Part shown: piece after piece, positions 413-59,939 of the stretch
Position numbering within the stretch: the stretch's first letter is position 1
How the letters are laid out: each line of letters begins with the position of its first letter
Assembly (NCBI GenBank): GCA_964534335.1
Contig: CAZHPS010000001.1
Span: forward strand, 1 to 59,939
Source of the DNA: an uncultured Desulfobacterales bacterium
GTDB lineage: Bacteria > Desulfobacterota > Desulfobacteria > Desulfobacterales > Desulfococcaceae
Reading direction: 5' to 3'
DNA length: 59,939 bases
Position numbers and translations under genes: made by a program
The notes under the pieces: model-generated
The model's input: only the letters and a program-made list of their open reading frames with translations
The model's database searches: none
Told to the model about the DNA's origin: nothing

Positions 413-1918
413 ATGAATCCGGTAACAGAGAATACCCTGTTTTACGGAGATAATTTAAAAATACTCCGTGAACATATCCCTGCGGAAAGTGCTGATCTGA
501 TTTATCTTGATCCGCCTTTCAACTCAAACCGGAATTATGATGTTATTTTCAAAGATGAAAGCAGAGAAAATTCTGAGACCCAGATAACCGCATTTGAGGA
601 CACATGGCACTGGGACAGAAAAGCACAGGAAACGTATCATGAACTGATTGCAAATGCTCCTGCGCATGTGGGAAAAATGATAAGTGCCTTAAGGGATTTT
701 ATCGGAGCCAATCAGGTCACGGCCTATCTGGTAATGATGACTGTCCGGTTAATTGAACTTCACAGAGTGTTAAAATCAGCAGGCAGCTTGTATCTTCATT
801 GCGATCCGACAATGAGTCATTATCTGAAGATTGTGCTGGATACCATTTTCGGAAAAGAAAATTTCAGAAATGAAATTGTATGGTGTTACAGAAAATGGAA
901 TGTGAGACAGTCCCAGTTTCCTTCCAACCATGATATTATTTTGTTTTACACAAAAACGCAGACAAATTTTTTTCATACCCTGTTTTTGCCAAAATCCCCC
1001 AAATCATCGGGAAAAGGAAAGAAAATTCAAAGTATTATCGGCGATGACGGGAAAAGAAAATCTGTTTATCTGGATACAGATTCAGAAGGGACTCCGGTTC
1101 CGGACTGGTGGGAAATTCCAATAATCAATCCTATGGCTAATGAAAGACTTGGCTATCCCACACAAAAACCGCTTGCCTTATTGGACAGAATCATTCAATC
1201 CAGCAGTAAGGAATACGACACGGTTCTTGATCCCTTCTGCGGGTGCGGGACTTCCATTCACGCTGCGGAGAAACTGAACAGAAAATGGATAGGAATTGAC
1301 ATCACGCATCTTTCCACTTCGCTTCTGAAATACAGACTCAAAGACGCGTTTGATCTCACAGAACGAAAAGATTATGATGTCATGGGAGAACCGGAGGATT
1401 TGGCCGGCGCACAAAGACTGGCACAGGAAAACCGGTATCAGTTTCAGTGGTGGGCATTGTCTCTGGTTCAGGCAAAACCGGTTGGCGGTGTCCAAAAGAA
1501 AGGAAAGGACAGAGGCATTGACGGGGTTATCACTTTTATTGATGACAGCAGCCAAAAGGCAAAACAGATCATTGTTCAGGTGAAAAGCGGCAAAACCGGG
1601 GCAAAGGACATCCGGGATTTAATCGGCACGGTGAACAATGAAAGAGCGCAGATGGGCATTTTCATCACGCTGAATGAACCGACAAAGGACATGAAAACAG
1701 CCGCAGCAGAAGCAGATTTCTATCATTCTTCAGGCTGGAACAAAGATTTTCCCGGAATACAGATCATGACCATAGAAGATCTTCTGAACGGAAAAACCCC
1801 GGATCTGCCTCCGGTCAAAAGGACATTTAAGCAGGCAAAAAGGGATGTAAGGGAACAGGACAGATGGAAACAGAATGGTATGGACAGTTTTGAAACAGAC
1901 GGAGGATATGTTCAATGA
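413..1918 (+). CDS. Beta-class N6-adenine/N4-cytosine DNA methyltransferase fused to a C-terminal Mrr-type PD-(D/E)xK restriction endonuclease domain
   Basis: Motif IV DPPF lies at aa 33-36 (nt 509-520), ahead of the AdoMet motif VLDPFCGCGTS, which is the beta permutation. The C-terminal 150 aa carry DRGIDGV...IIVQVKSGK...IRDL.G...GIFITL, the Mrr_cat pattern. Confidence 0.8.
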   Translation: MNPVTENTLFYGDNLKILREHIPAESADLIYLDPPFNSNRNYDVIFKDESRENSETQITAFEDTWHWDRKAQETYHELIANAPAHVGKMISALRDFIGANQVTAYLVMMTVRLIELHRVLKSAGSLYLHCDPTMSHYLKIVLDTIFGKENFRNEIVWCYRKWNVRQSQFPSNHDIILFYTKTQTNFFHTLFLPKSPKSSGKGKKIQSIIGDDGKRKSVYLDTDSEGTPVPDWWEIPIINPMANERLGYPTQKPLALLDRIIQSSSKEYDTVLDPFCGCGTSIHAAEKLNRKWIGIDITHLSTSLLKYRLKDAFDLTERKDYDVMGEPEDLAGAQRLAQENRYQFQWWALSLVQAKPVGGVQKKGKDRGIDGVITFIDDSSQKAKQIIVQVKSGKTGAKDIRDLIGTVNNERAQMGIFITLNEPTKDMKTAAAEADFYHSSGWNKDFPGIQIMTIEDLLNGKTPDLPPVKRTFKQAKRDVREQDRWKQNGMDSFETDGGYVQ

Positions 1919-4900
1919 AAATACAAAATATTCGTTTTCAGAATATCAGCACACTAAAAGGACAGTGGGAAATCGCTTTTGACCGATCTCCGTTTGCGGA
2001 GTCCGGAATTTTTGCCATCACCGGCCCCAACGGCGCAGGAAAAACCACAATTCTTGATTCGCTCACACTGGGACTTTACGGCGAAACCCCCCGTCTGAAG
2101 AATCCCGGAGAGGAAATCATGACACGGGACTGTGCTGAAACCTCCTCTGAAGTCACTTTTTCCGTCAATGATGCCATTTACCGTTCCCAATGGCAGATCC
2201 GCAGAAAAGGGGGAAAAACCAATCCGCCTGAAATGAAACTCTTTTCCCTTAACGGCCATGAAACGCTTATGGATGACAGGCCTGCGGCAGTCCGCAGCCG
2301 GATTGCGGAACTCACAGGGCTGGATTTCAAACGCTTCTGCCGCTCTGTCATGCTGGCACAGGGGGAATTTGCCGCTTTTCTCCATGCCCTTGATACAGAA
2401 CGATCTGAAATTCTCGGAAAGATTATCGGCCCTGAAGTCCGGTCTGAATATGTCCGGCAAACCCTGCTGAAAGCTGACAGCGAAAATGAGAAATTTCTGC
2501 GTATGAAAGAAGAGACAGAGAAGTTTCCCCTGCCTGATCCGGGTACGGTAAGGGAAAAACAGGAAAGTCTTGCCCTTGTTCTGGATCAGTTGGAAGAAAC
2601 AGAACATGAACTGTCCGTGCTGGAGCAGAAAAAAGAGAGTTTTGAAACACGGGAACGTCTGCAAAAGGAGTATGAAAATGCCAGCCTGTCTCTGGCAGCA
2701 GCCACAGCGCGTCAGGAAGAAATGCAGGAACAGTTCCGGAAACTGGTCAAAGCCATAAAAGCCGTTCCCCTTCAGGCAGATATGGAAAGTCTTATTTCTC
2801 TGGAGACAGCAGAAGGTGCGGCAGGGAAAATGCTGGAAGAACAGATCTCCGGAATTCCGCTTACTGAGGATCAGCTTATGTCCCTGAATGAAAGGGAAAA
2901 GCAGCATCAGGCAGAACTGGAGCAGGTTCGCGGGATGTGGAATGAACAGAAGGAATTCATTGAAAAAGCACTGGAAATCACGCGGGAGATGGAATCAGCC
3001 ACATATGATTTCAGGAAAAAAGTGGAACGGTATGAAGCTTTGGAAAAAGAGCAGAACCTGAATCTGCAGGAACAGAATGAACTGAAAAACCGGATTGCGG
3101 AAAATGAAACCGCAGAGAAAGAAATCGGAAAGTGGCTCGCTGACAGGGCAGCAGATCGGGAACTGGAAACAGAGATTCCGCTTATCCGGGAGGCTGTGGA
3201 AAATCTGGGACGTATCCGTTCGGAACTGGCTGAAGCAGGAAAACAGCATTCAGAAGCCCTGAAAGCCGAAGAAAAAGCAGCGAAAATTTTCGGAAAAGCT
3301 GAGCGTGTGATTACAGTCATCCGGGAAAAGCGGGAAAAAATCAGTCTCAGGGGCATGGAAAGAGAAAACACTGTCCGGGAACTGCTGGGCAGTGATTCCC
3401 TGGAAGATATTGAAAACCGGTATAAAACGCAGAAAGAAAAACTGTGCGCCGCAAAAAAACTCCTGTCCATCAGCAAAGATTATGTCAAACAACTGGCAGC
3501 AAACGGCGGAAGACGGCAGAAACTGGAAGAGGAACTGAGTGCGGCAGAATCCCAATATGCTGATTTGTCACAGCAGCTCCTGCAGGAAGAGAATATTTAT
3601 ATTACGCTGAATCATGCCAATGCTGCCCTGAAATATGAATCAGAACGGGCTTTGCTGAAAACAGGGGAGCCATGTCCTATGTGCGGTTCCCCGGATCATC
3701 CCTTTGTCACGCACGGACTTCCTTATGAGGGTGATCCCCGTAAAGCACTCAAAGATCAGGAAGAGCGGATAAATACTATCCGGAAACAGATGGACAGACT
3801 TTCAGATGAGATCGAAAATCTGCGGAAACAGAGCAGGAAAACCGAAATCCTGCGGGAGGAATGGGACAGACTGTTCAGAAATATTGGTCAGGACTGGGTG
3901 ATTGAAGATGTGAAAACCGTCAAAAATGGCTTCCGGGAACTGAAAAAAGAAACCCGCAAACAGAAAATCCATTTCAAGGCTGTGTACAAACATGGAAAAA
4001 AGGCAGAGAAATATCAAAGGGCTGTTCAGAAAAAAACTGACAAACTCAATGAAAAACAGATGGTGGCAGAGAGACTGCGGAATGATCTGAATATTCAGCA
4101 GGGTATCACAGCAACTCTGGCCAGGGCGGCAGAGGAGATTCAGAACCGGGAACATGCACAGATTCAGAATCTGCAGGAGAAAGTGAAAAAATACGGTTAT
4201 GAAATTCCAGCACCCGGAAAAGAGAATATTCTGCTGCCGGATATGGAAAAAAAGCGGGATGTATTTCTGGAAAAGGTTCAGACGCAGGCCGGTCTGAAAA
4301 ACATAGCGGAAGAATTGTCCCAAAAAGCCCGGATTCTGCCGGAATCCCTGAAAATGCTGAAAAAAGAGGCAGATGATCTGGAAGAAAAGATCAGAACCGC
4401 GCAGGAAAAACTCACAGAACTGGAAATCCGGAGGAAAGAGGTCTTTGATTCCGGTGACCCGGTGCAGGTGAAACAGGAACTCGAAGACGCTATCCGTGCA
4501 AAAACAGAAGAACTGGCTGAAATTATTCAGGAGAAGGAAAATGCAGATCAGAAACTGGCTGATATGCGGCAAAAGAAGGAACTGGCTGAATCTGAATATA
4601 AGCGTTTGCAGAGAGAGAAGAAAAATCTGGAGCATGGCCTGAGTGCCAAATCTCTGGCAGCGGGGTTCAGCAGCATTGAGGAAGTAAGGGAAAATCTGAT
4701 GCCTGCTGAAGAGCAGGATCGCATTGCAGCACTGCAGAAAGAGATGGAACAGGCCGTTGCTGAAAACAGGGCCGGAGTTGACAGTATCCGGGAAATGCTC
4801 GCTGCTGAATCCGCGTATCAGGAACAGACTGAATCTCCTGATATTGTCCATGAGAAAATCCGTGAAACCCGGAAAATACGGGACAGACTGGCCGGAGAAT

Positions 4901-5499
4901 CTGAAATTTCTGAAAAAACAGTGAAAAAGCATGAATCCCTTGAACAGGAATATACGCAGATGATAAAAAATCTGGAAGAGCAGGAAAAACGCTGTCACCG
5001 GCTCAATTCCCTGAAAAGTCTTATGGAATCCGGTGATGAACCGGAAATCCGTAAGCAGATTCAGCATTTCATGCTTAACCGGCTGCTGGAGAAAAGCAAC
5101 CGGCATATGGAGGAACTGAGCGGGCATTATTATATCCGGCGCCGGGATCCTTCAGGTATGAGTCTTGAAATTGAGGATATACGGCATAAGGGAATGCGCA
5201 GATCCGTGAAAACACTTTCCGGAGGAGAAAGTTTTCTGGCAAGTCTGTCGCTGGCTCTGGGGCTTTCGGAAATGGCGTGCAGTGACCGGAAGATTGAATC
5301 TCTTTTTCTGGATGAGGGTTTTGGTATGCTGGATGATGAAACTTTGTACAGGGTCATATCTGCTTTGAAGAATATCAAAGCCAACGGAAAAATGGTGGGT
5401 GTGATTTCCCATGTAAAAAGGCTGGAGGATGAAATTCGGACACAGATCAAAATAGAAAGACTTTCAGATGGGCTTAGTCAGATTGAAATTATGGCATAA
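1915..5499 (+). CDS. sbcC: SbcC/Rad50-family SMC-like ATPase with zinc hook
   Basis: Walker A GPNGAGKTT (nt 2023-2049), a very long Glu/Lys-rich coiled coil and a CPMCGSPDHP hook (nt 3673) that resembles the E. coli SbcC hook. Signature LSGGESFL and Walker B LFLDEGFGMLD are present. The ATG overlaps the methyltransferase stop as ATGA (1915-1918). Confidence 0.85.
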   Translation: MKIQNIRFQNISTLKGQWEIAFDRSPFAESGIFAITGPNGAGKTTILDSLTLGLYGETPRLKNPGEEIMTRDCAETSSEVTFSVNDAIYRSQWQIRRKGGKTNPPEMKLFSLNGHETLMDDRPAAVRSRIAELTGLDFKRFCRSVMLAQGEFAAFLHALDTERSEILGKIIGPEVRSEYVRQTLLKADSENEKFLRMKEETEKFPLPDPGTVREKQESLALVLDQLEETEHELSVLEQKKESFETRERLQKEYENASLSLAAATARQEEMQEQFRKLVKAIKAVPLQADMESLISLETAEGAAGKMLEEQISGIPLTEDQLMSLNEREKQHQAELEQVRGMWNEQKEFIEKALEITREMESATYDFRKKVERYEALEKEQNLNLQEQNELKNRIAENETAEKEIGKWLADRAADRELETEIPLIREAVENLGRIRSELAEAGKQHSEALKAEEKAAKIFGKAERVITVIREKREKISLRGMERENTVRELLGSDSLEDIENRYKTQKEKLCAAKKLLSISKDYVKQLAANGGRRQKLEEELSAAESQYADLSQQLLQEENIYITLNHANAALKYESERALLKTGEPCPMCGSPDHPFVTHGLPYEGDPRKALKDQEERINTIRKQMDRLSDEIENLRKQSRKTEILREEWDRLFRNIGQDWVIEDVKTVKNGFRELKKETRKQKIHFKAVYKHGKKAEKYQRAVQKKTDKLNEKQMVAERLRNDLNIQQGITATLARAAEEIQNREHAQIQNLQEKVKKYGYEIPAPGKENILLPDMEKKRDVFLEKVQTQAGLKNIAEELSQKARILPESLKMLKKEADDLEEKIRTAQEKLTELEIRRKEVFDSGDPVQVKQELEDAIRAKTEELAEIIQEKENADQKLADMRQKKELAESEYKRLQREKKNLEHGLSAKSLAAGFSSIEEVRENLMPAEEQDRIAALQKEMEQAVAENRAGVDSIREMLAAESAYQEQTESPDIVHEKIRETRKIRDRLAGESEISEKTVKKHESLEQEYTQMIKNLEEQEKRCHRLNSLKSLMESGDEPEIRKQIQHFMLNRLLEKSNRHMEELSGHYYIRRRDPSGMSLEIEDIRHKGMRRSVKTLSGGESFLASLSLALGLSEMACSDRKIESLFLDEGFGMLDDETLYRVISALKNIKANGKMVGVISHVKRLEDEIRTQIKIERLSDGLSQIEIMA

Positions 5500-5517
5500 G
5501 ACTGATTGCAGATCATA

Positions 5518-5619
5518 TTTTTGGAGCCTCATCTCCAAAATTTGGAGTTTTCTGCATACAGAAAAAACAAACATTCTGTTTACTCCAAAATTTGCAGGAA
5601 ACTTTTAACATAATGATTA
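5518..5619 (+). repeat. About 103-bp dispersed direct repeat, copy 1 (TTGGAGCCnCATCTCCAAAATTTGGAGTTTTCTGCATACAG...TAATGATTA)
   Basis: Second copy at 10747..10849 in the same orientation with a handful of mismatches. The two copies bracket the C10 peptidase gene. Confidence 0.7.
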
Positions 5620-5759
5620 GGTAGTGGGTCAAACCGGTTGATCTGATGCCAGCACCGGGACGGAAAAAATTCGCAAGGATTGATATTATTACAGAAAAAA
5701 TCTGAAAAAACAAATCAGAATTCCGGAAGGGATGACATTATCAACTGGTTTGACCCACC
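5620..5759. mobile_element. 140-bp MITE-like element with about 22-bp TIR GGTAGTGGGTCAAACCnGTTGAT
   Basis: The left end GGTAGTGGGTCAAACCGGTTGAT and right end ATCAACTGGTTTGACCCACC are reverse complements. The terminal GGTAGTGGGTC is shared with the 5864, 26091 and 59370 elements. Confidence 0.6.
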
Positions 5760-5777
5760 AAAAAATTCTTGTAGCAT

Positions 5778-5793
5778 TGGCACCATATTTGCA
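5778..5793 (+). promoter_or_regulatory. sigma54-type -24/-12 promoter motif TGGCACcatatTTGCA
   Basis: Matches TGGCAC-N5-TTGC exactly and points toward the C10 peptidase gene. The flanking sequence is homologous to the tandem promoter units at 10998..11364. Confidence 0.45.
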
Positions 5794-5863
5794 TGTAAAA
5801 CCGCAGGGATTTTATATAAGAAGGGGTTTCAAAGAATCAGCAATCCCTGCTTATAAAAAATTC

Positions 5864-6098
5864 GGTAGAGGGTCTACACGAACTGATTAAAATTTAACTG
5901 CTTTATATTATTATGTTTTTATAGAATACAGATTTTTATCTATACATAATAAATACAAATAGTTATATGATACTCCATGATACTTTTCATACTGATTTTT
6001 TGTAATATTAATATATTGATTTATAAATTAAAAAAATCAGTAAAAACATAATAATATAAAGCAGTTAAATTTTAATCAGTTCGTGTAGACCCACTACC
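5864..6098. mobile_element. 235-bp AT-rich palindromic MITE (family A copy 1), about 58-bp near-perfect inverted arms starting GGTAGnGGGTCTACACGAACTGATTAAAATTTAAC
   Basis: The arms at 5864-5922 and 6040-6098 are reverse complements with 1-2 mismatches. Related copies at 26091..26285 and 59370..59722. It interrupts the right arm of a hairpin-family unit. Confidence 0.7.
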
Positions 6099-6250
6099 AA
6101 TTTCTGTAGCAGAATCCGGGAATATCTGATTCTTATGTTGTAAATTATCACAGATGGACAACCATTCTGGATTATCCAGTCATTTAATTCCGGATTTTAT
6201 CCTAATAATTTTAATGAGGTATTTTTTAATGGAGTAATGGAGGAAGACAT

Positions 6251-10534: not shown

Positions 10535-10684
10535 TAACGATCTAACTTTGGTTTTTTCGGCATAATTTTTGCAGGGCAGTCAGAACCGGAAATCTGACCT
10601 GAAAAACTCTTTGGACAGGCTGAAAAGGCATGTTCCTGATCAAAGGCAATTTCTGTGCCATAAAAAACCAAAGTTGAAACAGTA
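10535..10684. mobile_element. MITE family S copy 1 (TIR TAnnGATCnAAnTTTGGTTTT...; sigma54-like motif inside each terminus)
   Basis: Termini are inverted copies. cGGCATaatttTTGCA lies at 10558-10573 (+) and TGGCACagaaaTTGCC at 10645-10660 (-). TA follows the right end. Relatives at 37040..37134, 59406..59567 and a remnant at 27375..27409. Confidence 0.6.
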
Positions 10685-10746
10685 TATTTTATTTTTTGGA
10701 AAGTCTTTAAAACTGACTGTCTTTATCTTACATCAGTTTTTTGGAG

Positions 10747-10849
10747 CCCCATCTCCAAAATTTGGAGTTTTCTGCATACAGGAAAAACAGACATTCTGCT
10801 TACTCCAAAATTTGCAGGAAATTTTTAACATAATGATTATTCAGAAAAT
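10747..10849 (+). repeat. About 103-bp dispersed direct repeat, copy 2
   Basis: Aligns base for base with 5518..5619 apart from a few substitutions. Confidence 0.7.
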
Positions 10850-11097
10850 ACAGACAGTATGTCTTATTATTCCAAAAGGCATGAGAGTTTGTGCCGGATT
10901 TTGTCTTTCCCCAGCATGGATTTTTTTTGCACTTTTCACCAACTGCAGGGATTTTGCGTAAGAAAGGATTTCAGAAAATCAGCAATTCCTGAAATAACTA
11001 CAGGGATTTTGCATAAGAAAAGATTTGAGGAAATCAGCAATTCCTGCTCACAAAAAATCCTTTCTTATACAAAATCCTTGCAGCACAATCGGTTCTT

Positions 11098-11113
11098 TGG
11101 CACTGTATTTGCA
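11098..11113 (+). promoter_or_regulatory. sigma54-type promoter motif TGGCACtgtatTTGCA (tandem unit 1)
   Basis: Exact TGGCAC-N5-TTGC. The predicted start site, about 11-12 nt after the GC, falls at the first base of the next hairpin (11123). Confidence 0.45.
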
Positions 11114-11222
11114 TAGGAGTAACTACAAGGATTTTGCATAAGAAAGGATTTGAGGAAATCAGCAATTCCTGCTTACAAAAAATCCTTTCTTATCCAAAAT
11201 CCTTGTAGCACAATCGGTTCTC

Positions 11223-11238
11223 TGGCACTGTATTTGCA
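11223..11238 (+). promoter_or_regulatory. sigma54-type promoter motif TGGCACtgtatTTGCA (tandem unit 2)
   Basis: Exact TGGCAC-N5-TTGC, positioned as in unit 1 relative to the hairpin at 11248. Confidence 0.45.
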
Positions 11239-11347
11239 TAGGAGTAACTACAAGGATTTTGCATAAGAAAGGATTTGAGGAAATCAGCAATTCCTGCTTA
11301 CAAAAAATCCTTTCTTATCCAAAATCCTTGTAGCACAATCGGTTCTT

Positions 11348-11363
11348 TGGCACTGTATTTGCA
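11348..11363 (+). promoter_or_regulatory. sigma54-type promoter motif TGGCACtgtatTTGCA (tandem unit 3)
   Basis: Exact TGGCAC-N5-TTGC. This is the last of the tandem copies. Confidence 0.45.
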
Positions 11364-11423
11364 TGTAAACAAACAAAGCGACTTAAAGTTCTTTGTTGTT
11401 TCTGTCTGAACAAACCGATGCTA

Positions 11424-11439
11424 TGGCATAATACTTGCA
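11424..11439 (+). promoter_or_regulatory. sigma54-type promoter motif TGGCATaatacTTGCA, proximal to the PEP-CTERM gene
   Basis: Matches TGGCAY-N5-TTGC, lies outside the tandem units, and sits about 350 nt upstream of the 11791 start. Confidence 0.4.
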
Positions 11440-11575: not shown

Positions 11576-11701
11576 ATTGACAATATAATAAGGAGGTGTA
11601 CTGGCACTAACGCAATGGAGTAAGACCGTAAGTTTTTGTTTTGTGTGTTTCTGTTTACGTGCATTATTGTCTTTTTTGATATTTCATTTTATTTATTTTT
11701 T

Positions 11702-11776
11702 GAAAAAGCCAAACTCATCGTGAGGTGAGGACGGAAAGCTACGGGTCTTAATGGGTAAGACAGCCGGGTTGCCGAA
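11702..11776 (+). ncRNA. Candidate c-di-GMP-I (GEMM-I) riboswitch
   Basis: GCCAAAC is followed by the hairpin CUCAUC-GUGA-GGUGAG, which has a GNRA tetraloop. Then come GGACGGAAAGCUACGGGUC, the hairpin GUCUUA-AUGGG-UAAGAC, and CAGCCGGGUUGCCGA. From memory, this parallels Vc2 segments GGCAAACC, GGGACGCAAAGCCUCCGGCC and GGUAGCGGGGUUACCGA. It sits immediately 5' of the SD AAGGAGG and the ATG at 11791. Confidence 0.55.
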
Positions 11777-11790
11777 TTAAGGAGGCAGCT

Positions 11791-12399
11791 ATGAAAAAGT
11801 TTTTGATTTCAATTTGTATGGTGGTTTTGGTTTTTGGTCTTGTAAATAATGCAAATGCTTTAAGTTATTATATAAGCGATGTTGTTGCTGAGTATGAGTA
11901 TAGTGGAACGTATTTGTTTACTGTTACAAATCCCAATAATGATCCGGGAGTGACAGGGAATTTTGAAGAAGATAATCTTGAAGCAGCTTTGGAATCCTGG
12001 TTTACTGCTAATGCCTATGCAGCTAAAGATGTTGAATTAACCTATTACGATAGGGTTGATTATCCGGACATGGCCTCATCTTTAATGTCTGTGGAGTATG
12101 ATGAATCCCCTCGTGGAACTTGGTCTACCGGTGATCAGGCAATAGAATATTACACGGTTAAAGCTTCAACTGGATACGCAATTTACTGGCTTGGTGAACA
12201 AGGAGCATCTTCCGGGAATTGGACAACAGAGCATTTACTGGCTGGCAAGAATGGAAATATTCCCACAGTATCGCATCTGACCACTTTCAATCCTATTGGC
12301 GATCCCGGAACAAACCCGGTTCCTGAGCCCGCCACCATGTTCCTGCTTGGCAGCGGACTGGTCGGTGCCGGTGTTTTCAGACGGAAAAGAAGCAAATAG
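11791..12399 (+). CDS. Secreted PEP-CTERM sorting-domain protein
   Basis: N-terminal signal peptide. The C-terminus VPEPATMFLLGSGLVGAGVFRRKRSK has the PEP motif, a TM helix and a basic tail. Strong SD. Confidence 0.85.
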   Translation: MKKFLISICMVVLVFGLVNNANALSYYISDVVAEYEYSGTYLFTVTNPNNDPGVTGNFEEDNLEAALESWFTANAYAAKDVELTYYDRVDYPDMASSLMSVEYDESPRGTWSTGDQAIEYYTVKASTGYAIYWLGEQGASSGNWTTEHLLAGKNGNIPTVSHLTTFNPIGDPGTNPVPEPATMFLLGSGLVGAGVFRRKRSK

Positions 12400-21758: not shown

Positions 21759-21965
21759 TTATTCAATTATCTTATATTTATTTCGTGCCAGTTCTTTTTG
21801 CATACCGTCAAAATGCCACCACTCATGGCGTAAAGCAATGAAACCGGCCTGCTTTATGCTATCCGTGAGCATCTGTCTGTTTTCAAATTGCTCCTTTGTC
21901 AGCCAAAAATAAATTAAACTGTTCTGTCCGCTTGAACGATGGATTAATCTTTTTTTATGCTGCAA
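21759..21965 (-). pseudogene. C-terminal remnant of a VanX/DdpX-type D-Ala-D-Ala dipeptidase (M15)
   Basis: GFIALRHEWWHFD matches the conserved (E)WWHF C-terminal motif. Only about 40-60 aa are present, and it overlaps the end of the upstream gene. Confidence 0.5.
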
Positions 21966-22737
21966 GGCTTTCTATTATCTGTTCCTGTTCTTTGGGAAAA
22001 CCGAAAACGACAGACAGTTCAGATAATCTTTTTATATCATCATTACGATAAGTATTGTAACTTTGGTCATATACGGTTAAAAACTGATTGCTGCCTTTGT
22101 ACGACTTAATGTCATACCATCTTCTGAATATTTCATTGGAAACTGCATGACTGTTTGTCCCCGCTGACAGTGTTTGAACTAAAGAAATAATATTCCTCCC
22201 GTATACTTTAAAATCAACTTTTACTTCATTATCAAAATCACCTTTCAAAATTATTTCAGGATCATATTTCAAATGAGTTACAGAGAGAAATTCTTCAACC
22301 TCATCCTGAAAGGTCCCGCTGATTGTCAGTCTTTGTGTAAAAACCAGATCACTGATTCTTATACATGCCTGAGACAGTCTTACAATTGGATTATAAAATT
22401 GTTTAAAATCTTCAGGAATTAGTTGTATCTGAAATTGTCCGTCTGATTGCAATATATTAAGAGAATTGCAAATATCATCAATTATTGTCCGTCTTTTTTT
22501 TGTTGCCCACAGATTGAACTGCATATCGTCAGTATAATCCGCTGTCTGCCCCAAGTCTGAAAGAACATAACTACCGAATAAGTCATCATTTTTTCTCAGA
22601 AACAGATCGATATGTGAACCGTTCGGATAATTAAAAGGTGTTGCGATACGCAAATCTCCGCTTTTTATTATATCACAATCTTTTACCAATGAAAAAGATT
22701 TGAGATATTCCATTATGTTTTCACAATTTATTATCAT
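21955..22737 (-). CDS. Hypothetical protein, DUF1828/DUF1829-like by pattern
   Basis: 260-aa ORF with an ATG start. The N-terminal IATPFNYPNGSHIDLFL...LSDLGQT resembles DUF1828 as I remember it; not verified. Confidence 0.6.
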   Translation of the reverse strand: MIINCENIMEYLKSFSLVKDCDIIKSGDLRIATPFNYPNGSHIDLFLRKNDDLFGSYVLSDLGQTADYTDDMQFNLWATKKRRTIIDDICNSLNILQSDGQFQIQLIPEDFKQFYNPIVRLSQACIRISDLVFTQRLTISGTFQDEVEEFLSVTHLKYDPEIILKGDFDNEVKVDFKVYGRNIISLVQTLSAGTNSHAVSNEIFRRWYDIKSYKGSNQFLTVYDQSYNTYRNDDIKRLSELSVVFGFPKEQEQIIESLAA

Positions 22738-22751
22738 ATCTTTACCTTTCC

Positions 22752-23120
22752 CTATCCATCGGGTTTAATAAATATTCCCTTGTGGTTTATTTTAGACTGC
22801 TTACAGAGAATTTCCCATATTTGTCCGGTATCTTTATCTTTTAAATCGTCTCTCGATTGCGCATACGGAAGATTCCGCCTCGGACAACTCTCTTTTTGTA
22901 AAGAATGTTTATGTGTACGTCCGCTTTCTCCATGTATGGAACTGTTGACCTCAATTCTGCATACAGGGCCTGTGCCACGGACACAGAAATTGAATCTGAC
23001 TGACGGAATATCAGGTTTATATTTTCCGTTAAGCAATAAATCAATTCCCATAGAGTTATAAACTCTGATATTATCAAAACTTAATGTGTTTGTATTCTCT
23101 TTTTTTGAAAGAAATATCAT
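22752..23120 (-). CDS. Hypothetical protein; possible N-terminal extension to 23175 through an A7 homopolymer frameshift
   Basis: A 122-aa ORF. An upstream ATG at 23175 opens a 33-codon ORF in another frame that would fuse to this one if one A of the A7 run (T7 on the plus strand, 23100-23106) were removed. Confidence 0.5.
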   Translation of the reverse strand: MIFLSKKENTNTLSFDNIRVYNSMGIDLLLNGKYKPDIPSVRFNFCVRGTGPVCRIEVNSSIHGESGRTHKHSLQKESCPRRNLPYAQSRDDLKDKDTGQIWEILCKQSKINHKGIFIKPDG

Positions 23121-23270
23121 CCAGAATTTCTTTATCCGGCAAATCTCTTAATCTTTCAAATGTCAGTCTGTCCATAATTATCTAAACATTCTCCTTATCC
23201 TCTTTTTTATGAAAAAATTTAACAACGAGGTAAGCGGTGCGATATCAGCCGCATCCGCCTGACCAGCAGA

Positions 23271-27374: not shown

Positions 27375-27409
27375 TAATGTTTCAACTTTTTTTGGCATGA
27401 TTTTTGCGG
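27375..27409 (+). repeat. Solo terminus remnant of MITE family S carrying TGGCATgatttTTGC (27393..27407)
   Basis: TTCAACTTTTTTTGGCATGATTTTTGCGG aligns with the left terminus of 59406..59567. No matching right end is nearby. Confidence 0.4.
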
Positions 27410-27410: not shown

Positions 27411-28631
27411 TCATTTTGCAATTCTGATGACTGAACCGGTATTTTCATTTTCAGAAATCGGCTTACTCTGATCCGGCTGCCCGGATGTGCTGAAGCTGTG
27501 TATGTTTTCCGGCGAGAATTTTCCCATTTTGAAATAATCCTCAATTTTCAGATTGCCTTTTGCAAAAGCCTCAGCCAGGGCAGATGGAATTTTTGCCTGC
27601 TCTTCCAGATATTTTGAACGGGTTTCCAGAATGCGCACCTGCAGTTCCTGTTCTTTTCTTTCAGACTCGGCCTGCGCGATTTCCTTTTCTTCCCTGGCTT
27701 TGCGGATTTTCTGCTTTACCCCGATATTTTCTCCCACTGCAATGTCTGAAAGTTCAAGAGAGCGTATTTCATAGGCTGTATCATCAGCCAGAATGTCCTT
27801 TGGTAAAGCAGCAGAAATACTGTCCGGGTTTTCCAGAATTTTCTGATGGCTCTCCGCATTGCTTATGGCTGCAAGCAGGGCCTGTGAGGCCCGGCTCAGA
27901 ATGGTTTCTTCGCCTGCACCGCCCAGTATCTGATCCGGATCTGTGCGGATGGTCATCACGGCTCTGGCTGAAACCTCAAAACCGTTTTTGGTCACGGCTG
28001 TGACTTTTTCCGTGCGGATAATACGGGGCTGAATCAGGGTTCGCATGGCTTCCAGAATATCCCTGCCTGCGAGATCCGCTGCTGCCGCTGTATGAAAATC
28101 AATGGATATCTGTGTGTTGGCAGCAATGCTCATAGCTTCCATGACTTTTCCTGCATTGCCTCCCGCCAGCATATGCGCAGCAATATCCCCGATCTCCACT
28201 TCAAGTCCGATTTTGTCTGCACGTATTTTGTAATCCACCAGTTGCCGGACATCAATCCCGGAAGCCATGTGGGATAGCAGAGTGCTGATATCCGCTGAAA
28301 TATTTTCCTGTTTTGCCCGGACAGCGCATTCCATGATGATTCTTGCATCATCGGGAACAGGCAACTGTGCCAGAGATTCAATTTCTTCCGGAGAGACTTT
28401 CAGATGGCCTTCCGCAGCTTTTACCCCAAGTTCTGTGTATAACGCAGGATCAATTCCGCACGCGCGCATTTTGAACAGACGCAGGGGATTTGCAAAAGAC
28501 CGCAGCACCAGTGCGCGGAGCCAGAAGGATTTTTTGCGGTACAGATGATAAAAAAATCCCATAATCAGCAGCAGAAGGAGTATGATGACCGTTAGTATGC
28601 GTATGATATAAATTTCAAGAGAATATTCCAT
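27411..28631 (-). CDS. floA: Flotillin-like protein FloA (UPF0365/YqfA family)
   Basis: AAADLAGRDILEA, LGGAGEETI, ILENPD, LSDIAVGENIG and a C-terminal ALAEAFAKGNL..DYFKM match B. subtilis FloA as I recall it. The ATG at 28631 has AGGA upstream and sits right before the TM helix. The ORF track extends to 28670. Confidence 0.8.
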   Translation of the reverse strand: MEYSLEIYIIRILTVIILLLLLIMGFFYHLYRKKSFWLRALVLRSFANPLRLFKMRACGIDPALYTELGVKAAEGHLKVSPEEIESLAQLPVPDDARIIMECAVRAKQENISADISTLLSHMASGIDVRQLVDYKIRADKIGLEVEIGDIAAHMLAGGNAGKVMEAMSIAANTQISIDFHTAAAADLAGRDILEAMRTLIQPRIIRTEKVTAVTKNGFEVSARAVMTIRTDPDQILGGAGEETILSRASQALLAAISNAESHQKILENPDSISAALPKDILADDTAYEIRSLELSDIAVGENIGVKQKIRKAREEKEIAQAESERKEQELQVRILETRSKYLEEQAKIPSALAEAFAKGNLKIEDYFKMGKFSPENIHSFSTSGQPDQSKPISENENTGSVIRIAK

Positions 28632-28644
28632 AAAAAATTCCTGC

Positions 28645-29994
28645 TCACAAAGGGGATACATCCCTTGCATGTATGCTGATTTCTTCGGGTATCTGCGGTT
28701 CTGCCTCGCTGAGATTCATTTCCTGAAAACGCCGGGCAATGGGGATCAGCCGTCTTTCCAAAGAACCCAAAGTTTTGTTGTATCCTTCCACAGATTTGTT
28801 CAGATGTGTTTTCAGTTCTGCAAAATGTTCAATAAAGGTTTCCAGTCTCCGGTACAGTTCCTGTCCCTGCTGTGCGATATGAATAGCGTTTTCTGTCACC
28901 TGATGCTGTTTCCATCCATAGGCCACAGCCCTGAGCAGCGCGATCAGCGTCACCGGTGTGCTGATCAGAACCTTCTGATCCATGGCATATTCCAGAATTT
29001 CCGGGTCCTGGTCAAAGGCTGCACTCAGAAAACTGTCCCCCGGAAGGAACATGACCACAAAATCAGGAGCATTTTCAAACTGTTCCCAGTATTTTTTCCG
29101 GCTGAGTTCCCGGATCCGGCTCCGCATTGCTTTGGCATGTTCCTCCATTTTGCGTTTGTGCTCATCCGGTCTGTCTGATTCCGATGCCTCCAGATAGGCC
29201 TGCAGCGGCACTTTGGCATCCACAGGCAGAATGCCTGCATTGGGCAGATGAATGATCATATCCGGCCTTCCCCAGTCGGTTCCGGTCTGTTCCTCAAAGG
29301 CCACATGCCGGATCATGCCGGACATTTCCACAACCCGGCGCAACTGAATTTCTCCCCACCGGCCCCGTACTGTGGAAGATTTCAGTGCCTGGCTCAGGGT
29401 GATGGTGGCTGCCCGGATCTCCGTATGCGCACGGGACAAGTGCTGCAACTGTTCTGTCAGTCCCTGATACGCGCCTTCCCGTTTCTGCTCCAAATCCCGG
29501 ACATGACCTTCGAGCAGATGCAGATTTTCCCGCACAGGATCAAAGAGATTTTCCAACTGGGCTTTGTGTGTGTTCCAGTCTCCCTTTGCCTGACGGAAAA
29601 GAGCGGACATCTGTTCCCGCGCGTGTGAGGCAAAGAGTTCAGAATTTTTCTGCAGGGTCTGACCGGCCAGCGCGTCAAAAGCTTCCCGCATCTGATTTCT
29701 GGCCTGTTCCATCCATCTGAGTTTTTCTTCATCCGATACGCGCATCTGTTCCAGCCGGGCAATGCAGACTTTCAACTGCTGATTTTCCGTCTGCAGTCCT
29801 GTGCATACAGGTTCAAGAGATTGCAGTTTTCCGGCCAGTCCCTCTTTTTCCTTTGTTACTTCGGCTATACGGATATGAAGACTTTCTCTTTCCCGCTGGG
29901 CATTGGAACGAAACCACAGCCATGTGAAAACAGCACTTACTGTACCCGCAATGCAGATCAGCAGAATCAGCCGCCAGAGATCATAAGAAAGCAT
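28645..29994 (-). CDS. rmuC: DNA recombination protein RmuC
   Basis: N-terminal TM helix, a long coiled coil and the conserved C-terminal nuclease-like core (FVVMFLPGDSFL, ISTPVTLIALLRAVAYGW). Confidence 0.8.
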   Translation of the reverse strand: MLSYDLWRLILLICIAGTVSAVFTWLWFRSNAQRERESLHIRIAEVTKEKEGLAGKLQSLEPVCTGLQTENQQLKVCIARLEQMRVSDEEKLRWMEQARNQMREAFDALAGQTLQKNSELFASHAREQMSALFRQAKGDWNTHKAQLENLFDPVRENLHLLEGHVRDLEQKREGAYQGLTEQLQHLSRAHTEIRAATITLSQALKSSTVRGRWGEIQLRRVVEMSGMIRHVAFEEQTGTDWGRPDMIIHLPNAGILPVDAKVPLQAYLEASESDRPDEHKRKMEEHAKAMRSRIRELSRKKYWEQFENAPDFVVMFLPGDSFLSAAFDQDPEILEYAMDQKVLISTPVTLIALLRAVAYGWKQHQVTENAIHIAQQGQELYRRLETFIEHFAELKTHLNKSVEGYNKTLGSLERRLIPIARRFQEMNLSEAEPQIPEEISIHARDVSPL

Positions 29995-35299: not shown

Positions 35300-35575
35300 T
35301 TAGCTGGGATCATAATAATATTTCTTCCTCACCGGAGGAGAAGCCGGAGGCTTGTACTTTTCCTGTGCGGATTTATCCTTTGCCGGATCATAATGATACT
35401 GCCTGCGCCTGTTCCCGGAACATGAAAATGATATGCAGCACCATATAAAGAGAATGATCAGTATAAGGCATATGTTCCGGATTCCCGATTTCGCTGTGCC
35501 GCCCCTGAAAAAAACAAATCCCATTGCTGCCACCTCATTTCTTTGAAAAAATGAAGCATTACATCTGTGACTCAA
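35300..35575 (-). CDS. Possible small lipoprotein sharing a YxYDP motif with the adjacent OMP
   Basis: Hydrophobic segment plus ISFSCSG (lipobox-like), then QYHYDP...KKYYYDPS. The start codon is uncertain, and it overlaps the end of the upstream gene. Confidence 0.35.
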   Translation of the reverse strand: MSHRCNASFFQRNEVAAMGFVFFRGGTAKSGIRNICLILIILFIWCCISFSCSGNRRRQYHYDPAKDKSAQEKYKPPASPPVRKKYYYDPS

Positions 35576-36790: not shown

Positions 36791-36892
36791 AGCAGGCAAA
36801 CGAAATTTTTCGTGTATTCAGAAAATCCGGTTTTTCCGGAAAACCGGATTTTTTCTGAAAATTTTATACCCCAAAATTTATGCTGACTTACT
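36791..36892 (-). repeat. Intergenic palindromic repeat family R4 (core AAAACCGGATTTTT-N-AAAAATCCGGTTTT), inverted copy
   Basis: Its reverse complement aligns with 43712..43801 over about 90 bp. Confidence 0.65.
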
Positions 36893-37039: not shown

Positions 37040-37134
37040 TACTAATCCAATTTTGGTTTTTTGTGGCACAGAAGCTGCTTTAAGTGTCAGTCAGAGCAGT
37101 TTCTGTGCCATAAAAAATCAAAACTAGATCATTA
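37040..37134. mobile_element. MITE family S copy 2 (95 bp)
   Basis: TIR TACTAATCCAATTTTGGTTTT / AAAATCAAAACTAGATCATTA. TGGCACagaagCTGC at 37064-37078 (+) and TGGCACagaaaCTGC at 37096-37110 (-). TA precedes the left end. Confidence 0.6.
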
Positions 37135-43401: not shown

Positions 43402-43466
43402 GAGCTGAAAAAACCGGGTTTTTCCAAAAAAATCAGGTTTTTCTGTACACTTCAGCGCATAAAATC
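43402..43466 (-). repeat. Palindromic intergenic repeat (R4-related), inverted copy of 55857..55913
   Basis: Its reverse complement GATTTTATGCGCTGAAGTGTACAGAAAAACCTGATTTTTTTGGAAAAACCCGGTTTTTT aligns with 55857..55913. Confidence 0.6.
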
Positions 43467-43574
43467 AAAGTTGACAAAGCAATGGGTTGTGACAGGTTAT
43501 TTTGATACAGGCCGTCAGGTTTTTCACCGGATTTGTTCCCATGCCATTTTTTATGCTTATCCCATTATGGTTTA

Positions 43575-43700
43575 ATACCGATTCGCCATTGGTTTGATCC
43601 AATACCGTCAGTTTTTCCGCAGTTCCGGCTGTGCAGAAAACCGCTCCGCTTAATTTCTGCACTCCTCCGGATCAGCATCAGTTCAATGGAGAATCGGTAT
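43575..43700 (-). mobile_element. MITE family R3 copy 3 (inverted)
   Basis: ATACCGATTCGCCATTGG...CAATGGAGAATCGGTAT. The interior is the reverse complement of 49131..49265. Confidence 0.6.
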
Positions 43701-49265: not shown

Positions 49266-49345
49266 GAAAACGGTGTGAGGAAAATTTTTCAATCTGCCGA
49301 ATATGTAAAAACCGAAAAATATCATCAGAAAGAGGAGTGTGCATC

Positions 49346-55913: not shown

Positions 55914-55939
55914 CAAGGCACAGATTCAAGGTTGACAGA

Positions 55940-59136: not shown

Positions 59137-59364
59137 TTACTTCAGCAGAAAAATCAAAACAGCAATCATGACCGTCAGCAATGAACCGTAAAAAACGATT
59201 ATGGTCTGTGAAAACAGGGTTGCAGGCCATATATTTTTTCCACCGATAAATGCCTGCGGATTCATACTGAAATCAATTTCTTTTTCCTCTTTTTTGCGAA
59301 CATCATTATACTGATCCAATTTTGTTTTTTTTGGCACGATTCTTGCGTAGACATATTCATTCAA
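59137..59364 (-). CDS. Possible small tail-anchored membrane protein
   Basis: 75-aa ORF with one C-terminal TM helix (IIVFYGSLLTVMIAVLIFLL). No homology recognised. Confidence 0.3.
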   Translation of the reverse strand: MNEYVYARIVPKKTKLDQYNDVRKKEEKEIDFSMNPQAFIGGKNIWPATLFSQTIIVFYGSLLTVMIAVLIFLLK

Positions 59365-59369
59365 ATATT

Positions 59370-59722
59370 GGTAGTGGTCTGCACGAACTGATTAAAATTT
59401 AACTATACTGATCCAATTTTGGTTTTCTTTGGCATGATTTTTGCCTGACGTGCTGAAAGTGAAAAAACATCCGTTTTTGGCCTGAAAAACCCCGCAGACG
59501 GGCTGAAAAAAACTGTTTGGGCGCATAGGCAATTTCCGTGCCAAAGAAAACCAAAATTGGATCAGTATATCTTATATTATTATGTTTTTAAAAAATGCTG
59601 ATTTTTGTCTATACATCATAAATACAAACAGTTATACGATACATCCATGATACTGCTTATACTGATTACAAATAACATATTGATTTATATATTAAAAAAA
59701 TCAGTATGAGAATCCATCTACC
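59370..59722. mobile_element. MITE family A copy 3, interrupted by a nested family S MITE
   Basis: GGTAGTGG-TCTGCACGAACTGATTAAAATTTAAC...GAGAATCCATCTACC is collinear with 26091..26285 except for a 164-bp insertion after AACTA. Confidence 0.7.
59406..59567. mobile_element. MITE family S copy 3 (162 bp), nested, with TA target-site duplication
   Basis: TIR TACTGATCCAATTTTGGTTTTCTTTGGCA / TGCCAAAGAAAACCAAAATTGGATCAGTA. TA lies at 59404-05 and 59568-69, where the uninterrupted copy (26091..) has a single TA. TGGCATgatttTTGC at 59430-44 (+) and TGGCACggaaaTTGC at 59529-43 (-). Confidence 0.75.
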
Positions 59723-59939
59723 CAAATATTATTTGAAATTTTTCAACCATCAGTTTTTTTAATTTATCAATATGATCTCCGGTATTATTCAGAAACTGAA
59801 AAATTTTTGGACGGAATACTTTGTATTCCTTATAATATTTGTTTTTTGCCAGATGCTCTTTGGCATATTTCCAAATAATATTTGTTTTTTGCCAGATGCT
59901 CTTTGGCATATTTCCAAAAACGTTCAGTCAGATTCAGAT
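59718..59939 (-). pseudogene. IS630-family transposase C-terminal end (runs off the window), frameshifted by a 43-bp tandem duplication
   Basis: The minus strand reads LNLTERFWKYAKEHLAKNKYY, which matches my recollection of the IS630 C-terminal motif NLIERLWK..K......YY. Units 59833-59875 and 59876-59918 are identical 43-mers (43 mod 3 = 1). Removing one restores ...KNKYYKEYKVFRPKIFQFLNN.... Confidence 0.6.

What the first reader, a model, noticed from the sequence alone, without database searches (positions are those of the whole stretch)
10535..10684. MITE family whose inverted termini each embed an inward-facing sigma54 -24/-12 consensus (portable convergent promoters?)
Three full copies (10535..10684, 37040..37134, 59406..59567) and one solo end (27375..27409) share termini of the form TAcTGATCCAATTTTGGTTTTcTT-TGGCAyGnnnnTTGC. 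The sigma54 consensus is part of the inverted repeat, so every element carries one copy on each strand, both pointing inward and through the element. Examples are TGGCATGATTTTTGC (+) and TGGCACGGAAATTGC (-) in the 59406 copy, and TGGCACAGAAATTGC (-) in the 10535 copy. All have the exact TGGCAC-N5-TTGC spacing. The interiors differ in length and sequence while the promoter-bearing ends are conserved. That pattern would be expected if the ends are under selection, either for transposase binding or for promoter activity. Insertion of such an element would place flanking genes on both sides under sigma54/bEBP control.
Basis: partly seen in the sequence, partly recalled or inferred. Interest (0 to 1): 0.65.

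Follow-up and report, generated by a model that had tools for sequence, protein, structure and literature searches.

The report
Transposon ends carrying sigma-54 promoter boxes
A family of tiny mobile DNA elements, and the full-size IS630-type jumping genes they derive from, carry at both ends a sequence that matches the recognition site of the bacterial sigma-54 RNA polymerase. It is most likely the switch-controlled promoter of the transposase gene, and the miniature copies have spread it around the genome.

Summary
The window has three TA-flanked inverted-repeat elements of 95-162 bp (10535-10684, 37040-37134, 59406-59567) and one end remnant (27375-27409). It is the right end of the IS630-family element at the window edge.

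Every end carries an inward-facing GGCAY-N6-TGC box 3-5 bp inside a 21-bp terminal repeat. The strict form TGGCAY-N5-TTGC occurs in 5 of 8 ends.

The MITEs did not invent the box. About nine diverged autonomous IS630-family elements (transposases 49-93 % identical; Desulfobacterales and metagenomes) carry it at both ends. At the left end it lies 46-123 nt upstream of the transposase start, in sense orientation. Its -24/-12 letters are invariant, its spacer is free, and no sigma-70 alternative is present.

The box is most likely an enhancer-dependent (sigma-54) transposase promoter that the MITEs inherited. In MITE lineages the boxes are as conserved as the terminal repeats (0.86-0.96, against 0.51 for the interior). 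Sibling MITE families with the same termini lack them.

Nothing shows that the boxes drive neighbouring genes: there is no orientation bias, no activator site and no usable RNA data. This is a new variant of a known kind, of moderate interest.

The parts
10535..10684 (+). MITE copy A (150 bp), the most decayed of the three. Left box CGGCATAATTTTTGC at 10558-10572 (+). Right box TGGCACAGAAATTGC at 10646-10660 (-).
37040..37134 (-). MITE copy B (95 bp, interior deleted). Boxes TGGCACAGAAGCTGC at 37064-37078 (+) and TGGCACAGAAACTGC at 37096-37110 (-). It lies about 290 bp upstream of the minus-strand gene 35559-36749 and about 280 bp past the stop of proB-like 37413-38612.
   Evidence: (I17)
59406..59567 (+). 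MITE copy C (162 bp), intact and flanked by TA on both sides. Boxes TGGCATGATTTTTGC at 59430-59444 (+) and TGGCACGGAAATTGC at 59529-59543 (-). It is nested inside element X. Its first 30-31 nt at each end are identical to the ends of the autonomous IS in L103.
   Evidence: (I16)
27375..27409 (+). Remnant of a left-type end. The terminal repeat has an internal deletion, followed by TGGCATGATTTTTGC (27393-27407). It abuts the stop codon of floA (27411-28670, minus strand) and has no partner end.
59309..59369 (-). Right end (IRR) of the IS630-family element: terminal repeat, box TGGCACGATTCTTGC (59332-59346, pointing into the IS) and the last codons of the transposase (..IIFE*). It is separated from the rest of the IS by the insertion of X.
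59730..59939 (-). 3' part of the IS630-family transposase gene. It runs off the window and is 96.7 % identical in DNA to the IS in L103. It is inactivated by the X insertion and by an exact 43-bp tandem duplication (59832-59918).
59370..59721 (.). Element X, an unrelated MITE (terminal repeat GGTAGTGGGTCT..., 8-bp target duplication CAAATATT at 59362-59369 and 59722-59729). It interrupts the IS and hosts MITE copy C. It is listed only because it explains the layout.

Best explanation
The elements are non-autonomous derivatives (MITEs) of a clade of 1.17-1.25-kb IS630/Tc1-mariner-family insertion sequences found in Desulfobacterales.

Each transposon end is about 41 bp long and has three parts:
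- a 21-bp terminal repeat (TACTGATCCAATTTTGGTTTT), the presumed transposase site;
- a hypervariable linker of 3-5 bp;
- an inward-facing sigma-54-type -24/-12 box (GGCAY-N6-TGC, mostly TGGCAY-N5-TTGC).

In the autonomous elements the left-end box lies 46-123 nt upstream of the transposase start codon, in the sense orientation. It is the only conserved promoter-like element there. It most likely is the sigma-54 promoter of the transposase gene, dependent on an enhancer-binding protein and therefore essentially silent unless activated. The right-end box faces the 3' end of the gene, so it may be an antisense promoter or a second polymerase binding site.

The MITEs kept both 41-bp ends and so carry two convergent sigma-54 boxes. 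With no terminator inside, any transcript started at one box would read out through the opposite end.

Shown: the anatomy, the homology between IS and MITE ends, the conservation pattern, and the absence of a sigma-70 alternative.
Inferred: binding by sigma-54 polymerase, promoter activity, and any effect on neighbouring genes.
For: 1. MITE identity. The copies have inverted termini, TA on both sides in 74/95 complete copies (18/21 in this family), are 95-163 bp long and are dispersed in at least 89 stretches of Desulfobacterales genomes. In the source metagenome, contig depth over the terminus is 1769 against 11.8 for unique DNA.

2. Autonomous partners. Full-length elements encode HTH+DDE_3 transposases and have a TA duplication. 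The first 30-31 nt of both L103 ends equal those of MITE C. The window's own IS fragment is 96.7 % identical to L103.

3. Box in the IS clade. 12/12 left ends have GGCAY-N5-TTGC followed by A/T, and 10/12 have T at -26. 12/12 right ends have GG(C/T)AY-N6-TGC. The spacers differ freely (ATTTT, GGTTT, ACTAT, AAATT, ATGTC, ATTAT...) and the transposases are only 49-93 % identical.

4. The left box always points into the transposase gene, with a good ribosome-binding site 46-123 nt downstream.

5. No sigma-70-type promoter in gene orientation occurs between the left end and the ATG in 3 of 4 elements scanned. The one hit in L095 re-uses the box and is at chance level. Counts do not exceed shuffles.

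6. Coding does not explain the right box. In L096 it lies after the stop codon.

7. The box is clade-specific. Three distant IS630 members (Acaryochloris, Thiodictyon, Salmonella) have none.

8. These genomes use the canonical motif elsewhere. 10 of 11 non-MITE matches in 662 kb are intergenic, including four upstream of a PEP-CTERM gene.

9. By analogy, the ISY100 transposase footprint equals its 24-bp repeat, and 30 bp per end suffice for transposition (PMC2170065). The box at nt 27-41 therefore lies outside the expected transposase site.

10. A metatranscriptome contig covers the L098 transposase 5'UTR from 33 nt downstream of the predicted start. This is consistent but not decisive.
Against: - There is no direct evidence of sigma-54 binding or of transcription starts. 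No RNA run holds the window. The single RNA contig (depth 2.5) does not define a 5' end.
- Sigma-54 promoters need an activator. Only about 26 bp of element lie upstream of each box, and no conserved activator site was recognised.
- A promoter role does not by itself explain two things. The right end keeps a box. Non-coding MITE lineages keep both boxes as strictly as the terminal repeats, with IS-MITE homology stopping exactly after the -12 element. This suggests an additional role in cis.
- No rpoN or activator gene lies in the window. That the host has sigma-54 rests on taxonomy (general knowledge of Desulfobacterota).
Confidence: 0.6

Rival explanations
1. The box is a cis-acting transposition signal: an inner binding site for the transposase or for another DNA-binding protein needed at both ends. 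On this view its likeness to the sigma-54 consensus is coincidental.
For: - The box is present at both ends of every IS and MITE of the clade, at a near-fixed distance from the terminal repeat.
- It is conserved in non-coding MITE lineages as strongly as the terminal repeat (0.86-0.96 against 0.51 for the interior).
- IS-MITE homology ends right after the -12 element.
Against: - The invariant letters (GG, C, A, Y ... T, G, C at fixed spacing) are exactly the most conserved sigma-54 promoter positions in more than 60 ends, while the spacer drifts. A chance match of this quality is about 1e-3 or less per element; the window-wide expectation is 0.46.
- The linker between repeat and box varies in both length (3-5 bp) and sequence (identity 0.31-0.41). 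This is awkward for one protein spanning both parts.
- The ISY100 footprint is 24 bp and 30 bp per end suffice.
- Sibling MITE families with the same terminal repeat proliferated with one box (121-bp family, 7 copies) or none (88-bp family, 66 copies).
Confidence: 0.2
2. One reading: the MITE ends are maintained because they act as portable sigma-54 promoters, and the host exploits them to bring flanking genes on both sides under activator control.
For: - The boxes are intact in 35/40 ends.
- There are no intrinsic terminators and no conserved RNA structure inside the element, so read-out is physically possible.
- Copy B's right box points at the gene 35559-36749 about 290 bp away.
- MITE-borne sites make up 6 of 12 motif matches in the window and 20 of 31 in 662 kb.
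Against: - There is no enrichment upstream of genes compared with the box-less 88-bp sibling family.
- Near-identical recent copies already carry knock-out changes in a box (L037 GC->GA, L011 GC->GT), as expected for neutral decay of individual copies.
- Position -11 is always A/T in the IS left ends but unconstrained in the MITEs.
- The element provides no upstream activator site.
- The box pre-exists in the parent IS, so promoter donation is not needed to explain its origin.
Confidence: 0.15
3. The box is a neutral relic. The ends look conserved only because all copies are recent descendants of one element that happened to contain the motif.
For: Many copies within one genome are near-identical (e.g. 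L032, L037 and L068).
Against: - The interior has diverged to 51 % and the linker to 31-41 %, while the boxes stay at 86-96 %.
- The boxes persist across IS species whose transposases share only 49-60 % identity and whose terminal repeats have themselves changed.
Confidence: 0.03

Closest known systems
IS630-family insertion sequences (e.g. ISY100, IS630) and their MITEs
   Same: HTH + DDE_3 transposase of about 345 aa, an element of about 1.2 kb, TA target duplication, terminal repeats of about 24 bp, and short non-autonomous derivatives sharing only the ends.
   Different: This clade has an extra conserved module inside both ends that matches the sigma-54 -24/-12 consensus. Three distant IS630 members checked have none. 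No paper in the searched library links sigma-54 with MITEs or with IS630 transposase promoters.
Correia repeat-enclosed elements of Neisseria (from general knowledge, not tested here)
   Same: MITEs of about 100-150 bp with a TA duplication and about 26-bp inverted termini. They carry promoter elements and host-factor sites and can alter expression of neighbouring genes.
   Different: Correia promoters are of the sigma-70 type. No sigma-70-like promoter above chance is found in the present copies. The motif here is the enhancer-dependent sigma-54 type and faces inward at both ends.
Insertion sequences with the transposase promoter inside the left inverted repeat (IS10, IS50 and many others; general knowledge)
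   Same: A promoter is embedded in the left end and drives the transposase. In the L096 subgroup, a stem that could sequester the ribosome-binding site in the leader resembles known protection against read-through.
   Different: The promoter type would be sigma-54, which has no basal activity without an ATP-dependent activator. A second copy of the box is kept at the right end.
Canonical sigma-54 promoters (glnAp2, nifH type)
   Same: GG at -25/-24, TGC at -14 to -12, exact spacing, T at -26, C/T at -21, A/T at -11 in the IS left ends, and an AT-rich stretch downstream.
   Different: No upstream activator site belongs to the element, because the box starts only about 26 bp from the transposon tip. 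Start site and rpoN dependence are untested.

Membership tests
MITE of the IS630/Tc1-mariner superfamily | Terminal inverted repeats | tested here: met
   Copy C has 43-nt arms, 88 % complementary. The 21-nt core TACTGATCCAATTTTGGTTTT is shared by all copies.
MITE of the IS630/Tc1-mariner superfamily | TA target-site duplication | tested here: met
   74 of 95 complete copies have TA on both sides, 18 of 21 in the 162-bp family. Copy C is flanked TA/TA.
MITE of the IS630/Tc1-mariner superfamily | Small, non-coding, multi-copy | tested here: met
   The copies are 95-163 bp with no transposase ORF. There are at least 89 stretches in genome contigs. Depth over the terminus is about 150-fold that of unique DNA in the source metagenome.
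MITE of the IS630/Tc1-mariner superfamily | Autonomous partner with the same termini encoding a DDE transposase | tested here: met
   L103 (1247 bp, TA duplication, DDE_3) has ends identical to MITE C over 30-31 nt. A dead copy lies at 59309-59939.
MITE of the IS630/Tc1-mariner superfamily | Demonstrated mobility (empty site or insertion polymorphism) | tested here: inconclusive
   Copy C sits inside element X, and other X copies lack it. The target sequence differs among X copies, so there is no clean empty site. Contigs of the related sample X2 break at the repeat.
sigma-54-dependent (-24/-12) promoter | GG at -25/-24 and (T)GC at -14 to -12 with fixed spacing | tested here: met
   These letters are invariant in all 10 aligned window and L103 ends, in 35/40 MITE ends and in 24/24 IS ends, allowing one GGT.
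sigma-54-dependent (-24/-12) promoter | Extended consensus TGGCAC-N5-TTGCW | tested here: met
   IS left ends: 10/12 have TGGCAY, 12/12 have TTGC, 12/12 have A/T at -11. MITEs: 5/8 ends in the window match strictly, and -11 is unconstrained.
sigma-54-dependent (-24/-12) promoter | Located upstream of a gene and oriented towards it | tested here: met
   Met for the IS left end, with the transposase ATG 46-123 nt downstream. For the MITE copies there is no bias towards gene 5' ends.
sigma-54-dependent (-24/-12) promoter | Enhancer (activator binding site) within reach | tested here: inconclusive
   Only about 26 bp of element lie upstream of the box. No palindrome conserved across the clade was recognised in the leaders. 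Activators lacking DNA-binding domains, or sites in flanking DNA, cannot be excluded.
sigma-54-dependent (-24/-12) promoter | Transcription starts about 12 nt downstream of the GC and depends on rpoN | not testable with these tools
   No RNA run holds the window. One metatranscriptome contig (depth 2.5) covers the L098 leader from +33 but does not define a 5' end.
sigma-54-dependent (-24/-12) promoter | Host encodes sigma-54 and activators | not tested
   No rpoN or Sigma54_activat gene is among the 20 window proteins scanned. The host is a Desulfobacterales bacterium by similarity. Other canonical motif sites lie upstream of genes in the window.
Correia-like MITE carrying sigma-70 promoters | -35/-10 hexamers in or at the ends | tested here: not met
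   Copy A has 0 sites. Around copy C, three sites against 2.0 expected, none inside the element body in a consistent position.

The most novel reading that the evidence does not exclude
Sigma-54 RNA polymerase is a host factor recruited in cis to both ends of this transposon clade. The stable closed complexes it forms next to the transposase sites gate or insulate transposition itself, for example by coupling it to an activator signal or by shielding the ends from impinging transcription. This would explain why non-coding MITEs keep both boxes as strictly as their terminal repeats. As a by-product, amplification of the MITEs seeds the genome with dozens of enhancer-dependent promoters or sigma-54 sinks.
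Probability: 0.15. Interest if true: 0.8.

Novelty: new variant of a known kind. Interest (0 to 1): 0.6.

Why it matters
If the boxes are real sigma-54 sites, this would be an insertion-sequence clade whose transposase is locked behind an activator-dependent promoter. Transposition would then be tied to a specific cellular signal rather than to leaky sigma-70 expression.

The MITE derivatives would have dispersed tens of copies of an enhancer-dependent promoter, or polymerase binding site, in convergent pairs. That is raw material for rewiring sigma-54 regulons, for antisense transcription and for titrating the sigma factor.

There is also a practical consequence. Half of the sigma-54 motif matches in this window, and 20 of 31 in 662 kb of related DNA, are transposon-borne. 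Regulon predictions in Desulfobacterota therefore need to mask this family.

No paper in the searched library connects sigma-54 with MITEs or with IS630 transposase promoters.

Tried and rejected
- **RNA evidence.** No RNA run holds the window. Runs found with the L098 IS gave one 151-nt contig in the leader, which is not informative for the start site. None was found for L096.
- **Position and orientation census against flanking ORFs.** There is no difference from the box-less 88-bp family. Numbers are small and the gene calls were crude ORF-based ones.
- **Structured small RNA.** There is no Rfam family on the copies. The alignment fold shows only end-to-end pairing, and transcripts from the predicted starts have no conserved structure (-2.8 and -0.7 kcal/mol).
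- **Sigma-70 promoters or terminators.** None above chance inside the MITEs or in the IS leaders.
- **Palindromic protein site GGCA-N7-TGCC.** Rejected because the outer C is not conserved while the 5' GG is.
- **Parent IS among the genome loci L001-L089.** None found; lone ends there are MITEs with a diverged partner end. The parent was found only through the metagenome scan.
- **Host names for transposase homologues.** The cluster look-up returned none.
- **Insertion polymorphism between samples X1 and X2.** Contigs break at the repeat.
- **Unverified recollection.** I recalled that Bradyrhizobium RS-alpha/ISRj1 (IS630 family) carries nif-type promoter-like sequences. Only its family assignment could be confirmed, so it is not used as evidence.

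Full report
**1. What is in the window**

- Copy C (59406-59567) is intact: 43-nt arms, 88 % complementary, TA on both sides.
- Copy A (10535-10684) is decayed.
- Copy B (37040-37134) has lost its interior.
- The remnant at 27375-27409 abuts the stop codon of floA.

The pattern TGGCAY-N5-TTGC occurs 12 times in the window against 0.46 expected. Six of these lie in the element ends. An alignment of all ends shows G G C A ... T G C invariant at fixed spacing. The strict consensus is met in 5 of 8 ends. Both boxes of each element point inward, as described.

**2. The missed end and the IS at the window edge**

A fifth matching end at 59309-59346 is not a solo MITE end.
- The transposase fragment at 59730-59939 (minus strand) is 96.7 % identical in DNA to a full-length IS recovered from a metagenome (L103).
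- Comparison with L103 and with other copies of an unrelated MITE, 'X', shows that X (59370-59721, 8-bp duplication CAAATATT) inserted into the last codons of the transposase gene. X itself carries MITE copy C.
- So 59309-59369 is the right end of that IS. It has the same terminal repeat and a perfect box, TGGCACGATTCTTGC.
- The IS copy is dead. It is split by X and carries an exact 43-bp tandem duplication.

**3. Census of the wider family**

I scanned one genome per species with the outer 19 nt of the terminus only, so the scan was blind to the box. Nearly all are Desulfobacterales, Desulfococcaceae or 'Desulfohalobiaceae' MAGs.

The loci hold 96 complete small elements that share the 21-nt terminal repeat:

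| Family | Copies | Boxes |
|---|---|---|
| 88-bp | about 66 | none |
| 121-bp | 7 | one end only |
| about 162-bp (the window's family) | about 21 | both ends |

- TA flanks both sides in 74 of 95 copies.
- In the source metagenome, contig depth over the terminus is 1769 against 11.8 for unique sequence. It is 665 over the right-box region, 165 over the left-box region and 72 over the interior. This indicates dozens of box-bearing ends, with the caveat that assembler depth pools all community members.
- The window's organism is a Desulfobacterales bacterium. Region 21926-23237 is 90 % identical to a contig of Desulfobacterales bacterium AC2.63.

**4. Conservation inside the 162-bp family**

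Among 10 lineages, mean pairwise identity is:

| Region | Identity |
|---|---|
| Terminal repeats | 0.86-0.90 |
| -24 elements | 0.92-0.96 |
| -12 elements | 0.86-0.91 |
| Spacers | 0.76-0.78 |
| 3-5-bp linker between repeat and box | 0.31-0.41 |
| Interior | 0.51 |

- Thirty-five of 40 ends keep GGCA...TGC, and -14 T is invariant.
- Individual recent copies do carry disabling changes (L037, L011, L022, L083, L007), as expected for neutral decay after insertion. The lineages as a whole keep the boxes.

**5. The autonomous elements**

A metagenome scan for the terminal repeat plus GGCAY returned full-length elements of 1168-1250 bp: L095, L096, L097 and L098, plus partial ones.
- They encode HTH + DDE_3 transposases of 344-352 aa, 49-57 % identical to L095.
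- A protein search gave 446 relatives with E <= 1e-30. Contigs for seven of them were read: L101-L111, 57-71 % identical to the L098 transposase.
- In every case both ends carry the box.
- Left ends: 12/12 have GGCAY-N5-TTGC followed by A or T, and 10/12 have T at -26. The spacers are unrelated to each other. The transposase ATG lies 46-123 nt downstream, behind a good ribosome-binding site.
- Right ends: 12/12 have GG(C/T)AY-N6-TGC, mostly TGGCAC-N5-ATGC, pointing into the 3' end of the gene. In several the -12 element overlaps the last Ala codon and the stop. In L096 the box lies after the stop, so coding does not explain it.
- The terminal repeats themselves have drifted among these IS (TACTGATCC.., TAGTGCTCC.., TAGTATTCC.., TAATACTCC..) while the box letters have not.
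- Three distant IS630 members from plasmids (Acaryochloris ISAcma14, Thiodictyon, Salmonella; about 28 % identity) have no such box anywhere.

**6. How the MITE relates to the IS**

MITE copy C and L103 are identical over the first 30-31 nt of each end and again in the -12 element. Homology stops right after the box. The unit shared by the autonomous and non-autonomous elements is therefore the 41-bp end: repeat, linker, box.

**7. What the box most likely is**

The invariant letters are the positions most conserved in sigma-54 promoters (GG -25/-24, C, A, Y-21; T-14 G-13 C-12; consensus from general knowledge, Barrios et al. 1999). The spacer length is exact and the spacer sequence is free.

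In the IS the left box is correctly placed and oriented for the transposase gene. No sigma-70-type promoter in gene orientation is found between the left end and the ATG in three of four elements scanned. The one hit in L095 re-uses the box and is at chance level.

These genomes use the canonical motif elsewhere. Ten of 11 non-transposon matches in 662 kb are intergenic. Four lie upstream of a PEP-CTERM gene that also has a c-di-GMP riboswitch.

For the related ISY100, the transposase footprint equals the 24-bp repeat, and 30 bp per end suffice for transposition (PMC2170065). This places the box outside the expected transposase site.

I therefore read the left box as a sigma-54, activator-dependent transposase promoter (confidence about 0.6). 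The MITE boxes are inherited copies of it.

**8. What this does not explain**

A promoter role alone does not explain why the right end keeps a box. Nor does it explain why non-coding MITE lineages keep both boxes as strictly as the terminal repeats.
- One rival is that the box is a cis-acting transposition signal bound by the transposase or another protein (0.2). Three points speak against it: the variable linker, the exactness of the sigma-54 match, and the success of sibling MITE families with one box or none.
- A more novel reconciliation is that sigma-54 polymerase itself acts as a host factor at both ends (0.15). I state it as the novel case.

**9.

Nothing here shows that MITE insertions place neighbours under sigma-54 control.
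- Insertions of the 162-bp family are 11 tandem, 3 divergent and 2 convergent. The box-less 88-bp family shows 26/10/8.
- The element provides no room for an upstream activator site.
- Position -11, always A/T in the IS left ends, is unconstrained in the MITEs.
- There is no terminator and no conserved RNA structure inside. Read-out is therefore possible but unproven.
- No RNA run holds the window. The only RNA signal obtained is a low-depth metatranscriptome contig covering the leader of the L098 transposase from 33 nt downstream of the predicted start.

**10. Novelty**

MITEs that carry promoters, and IS whose left end holds the transposase promoter, are known kinds. A conserved sigma-54-type box at both ends of an IS630 clade and its MITEs is not described in the library searched. 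There were no papers joining sigma-54 with MITEs, and none on sigma-54 transposase promoters in IS630. I rate it a new variant of a known kind, interest 0.6. The anatomy and conservation are solid; the function rests on inference.

Noticed in passing
window 11699-11777 (+): A c-di-GMP-I-GGC riboswitch (Rfam RF03167, 72 bits, E 3e-15) lies immediately upstream of a PEP-CTERM protein gene (11791-12399).
   Followed up: partly
window 10995-11369, also 5760-5861 and 11424-11438: A 125-bp unit is repeated three times in tandem. Each unit is an 86-bp palindrome followed by a canonical sigma-54 motif, TTGGCACTGTATTTGCAT. A related unit with TGGCACCATATTTGC lies at 5778, and another motif at 11424. 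All point towards the riboswitch and PEP-CTERM gene or the C10 peptidase gene. This looks like promoter duplication.
   Followed up: partly
window 5513-5620 and 10733-10840: A segment of about 100 bp is duplicated upstream of both sigma-54 motif clusters. It contains the palindrome CTCCAAAATTTGGAG, which may be an activator binding region.
   Followed up: no
window 59370-59721 and 5854-6108; L005 11-204; L022 6131-6322: A second, unrelated MITE family ('X') has terminal repeats GGTAGTGGGTCTGCAC... and 8-bp target duplications (CAAATATT, CCATTGCC, AATACGCT). One copy interrupts the IS630 element and hosts MITE copy C. The copy at 5854-6108 is a longer, more palindromic form.
   Followed up: partly
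window 59832-59918: An exact 43-bp tandem duplication inside the transposase gene fragment shifts the reading frame.
   Followed up: yes
window 36821-36862, 43409-43450, 43740-43781, 55862-55921; also L060: A REP-like palindromic repeat family, AAAACCGGATTTTTCCGAAAAATCCGGTTTT, occurs in intergenic regions.
   Followed up: no
window 43571-43675 and 49165-49269; also 288-390: 105-nt inverted copies (94 %) of another dispersed repeat flank the region 43.7-49.2 kb. Related pieces occur at the window start and in L005.
   Followed up: no
L096, L100, L091, L099, L110 (IS leaders): In one IS subgroup the leader holds a long-range stem (CTCCTGAGAGG ... CCCCTCAGGAG) that would sequester the ribosome-binding site. 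A conserved CTTGACAAAT lies at the predicted start site.
   Followed up: no
L108 (Logan contig, both ends): The contig ends suggest one IS copy inserted at a TA just inside the left-end box of another copy, i.e. self-nesting. It could also be an assembly-graph artefact.
   Followed up: no
window 413-5499: An N6/N4 DNA methylase fused to an Mrr-type endonuclease domain is followed by a 1194-aa SbcC/AAA protein. This may be a defence locus.
   Followed up: no
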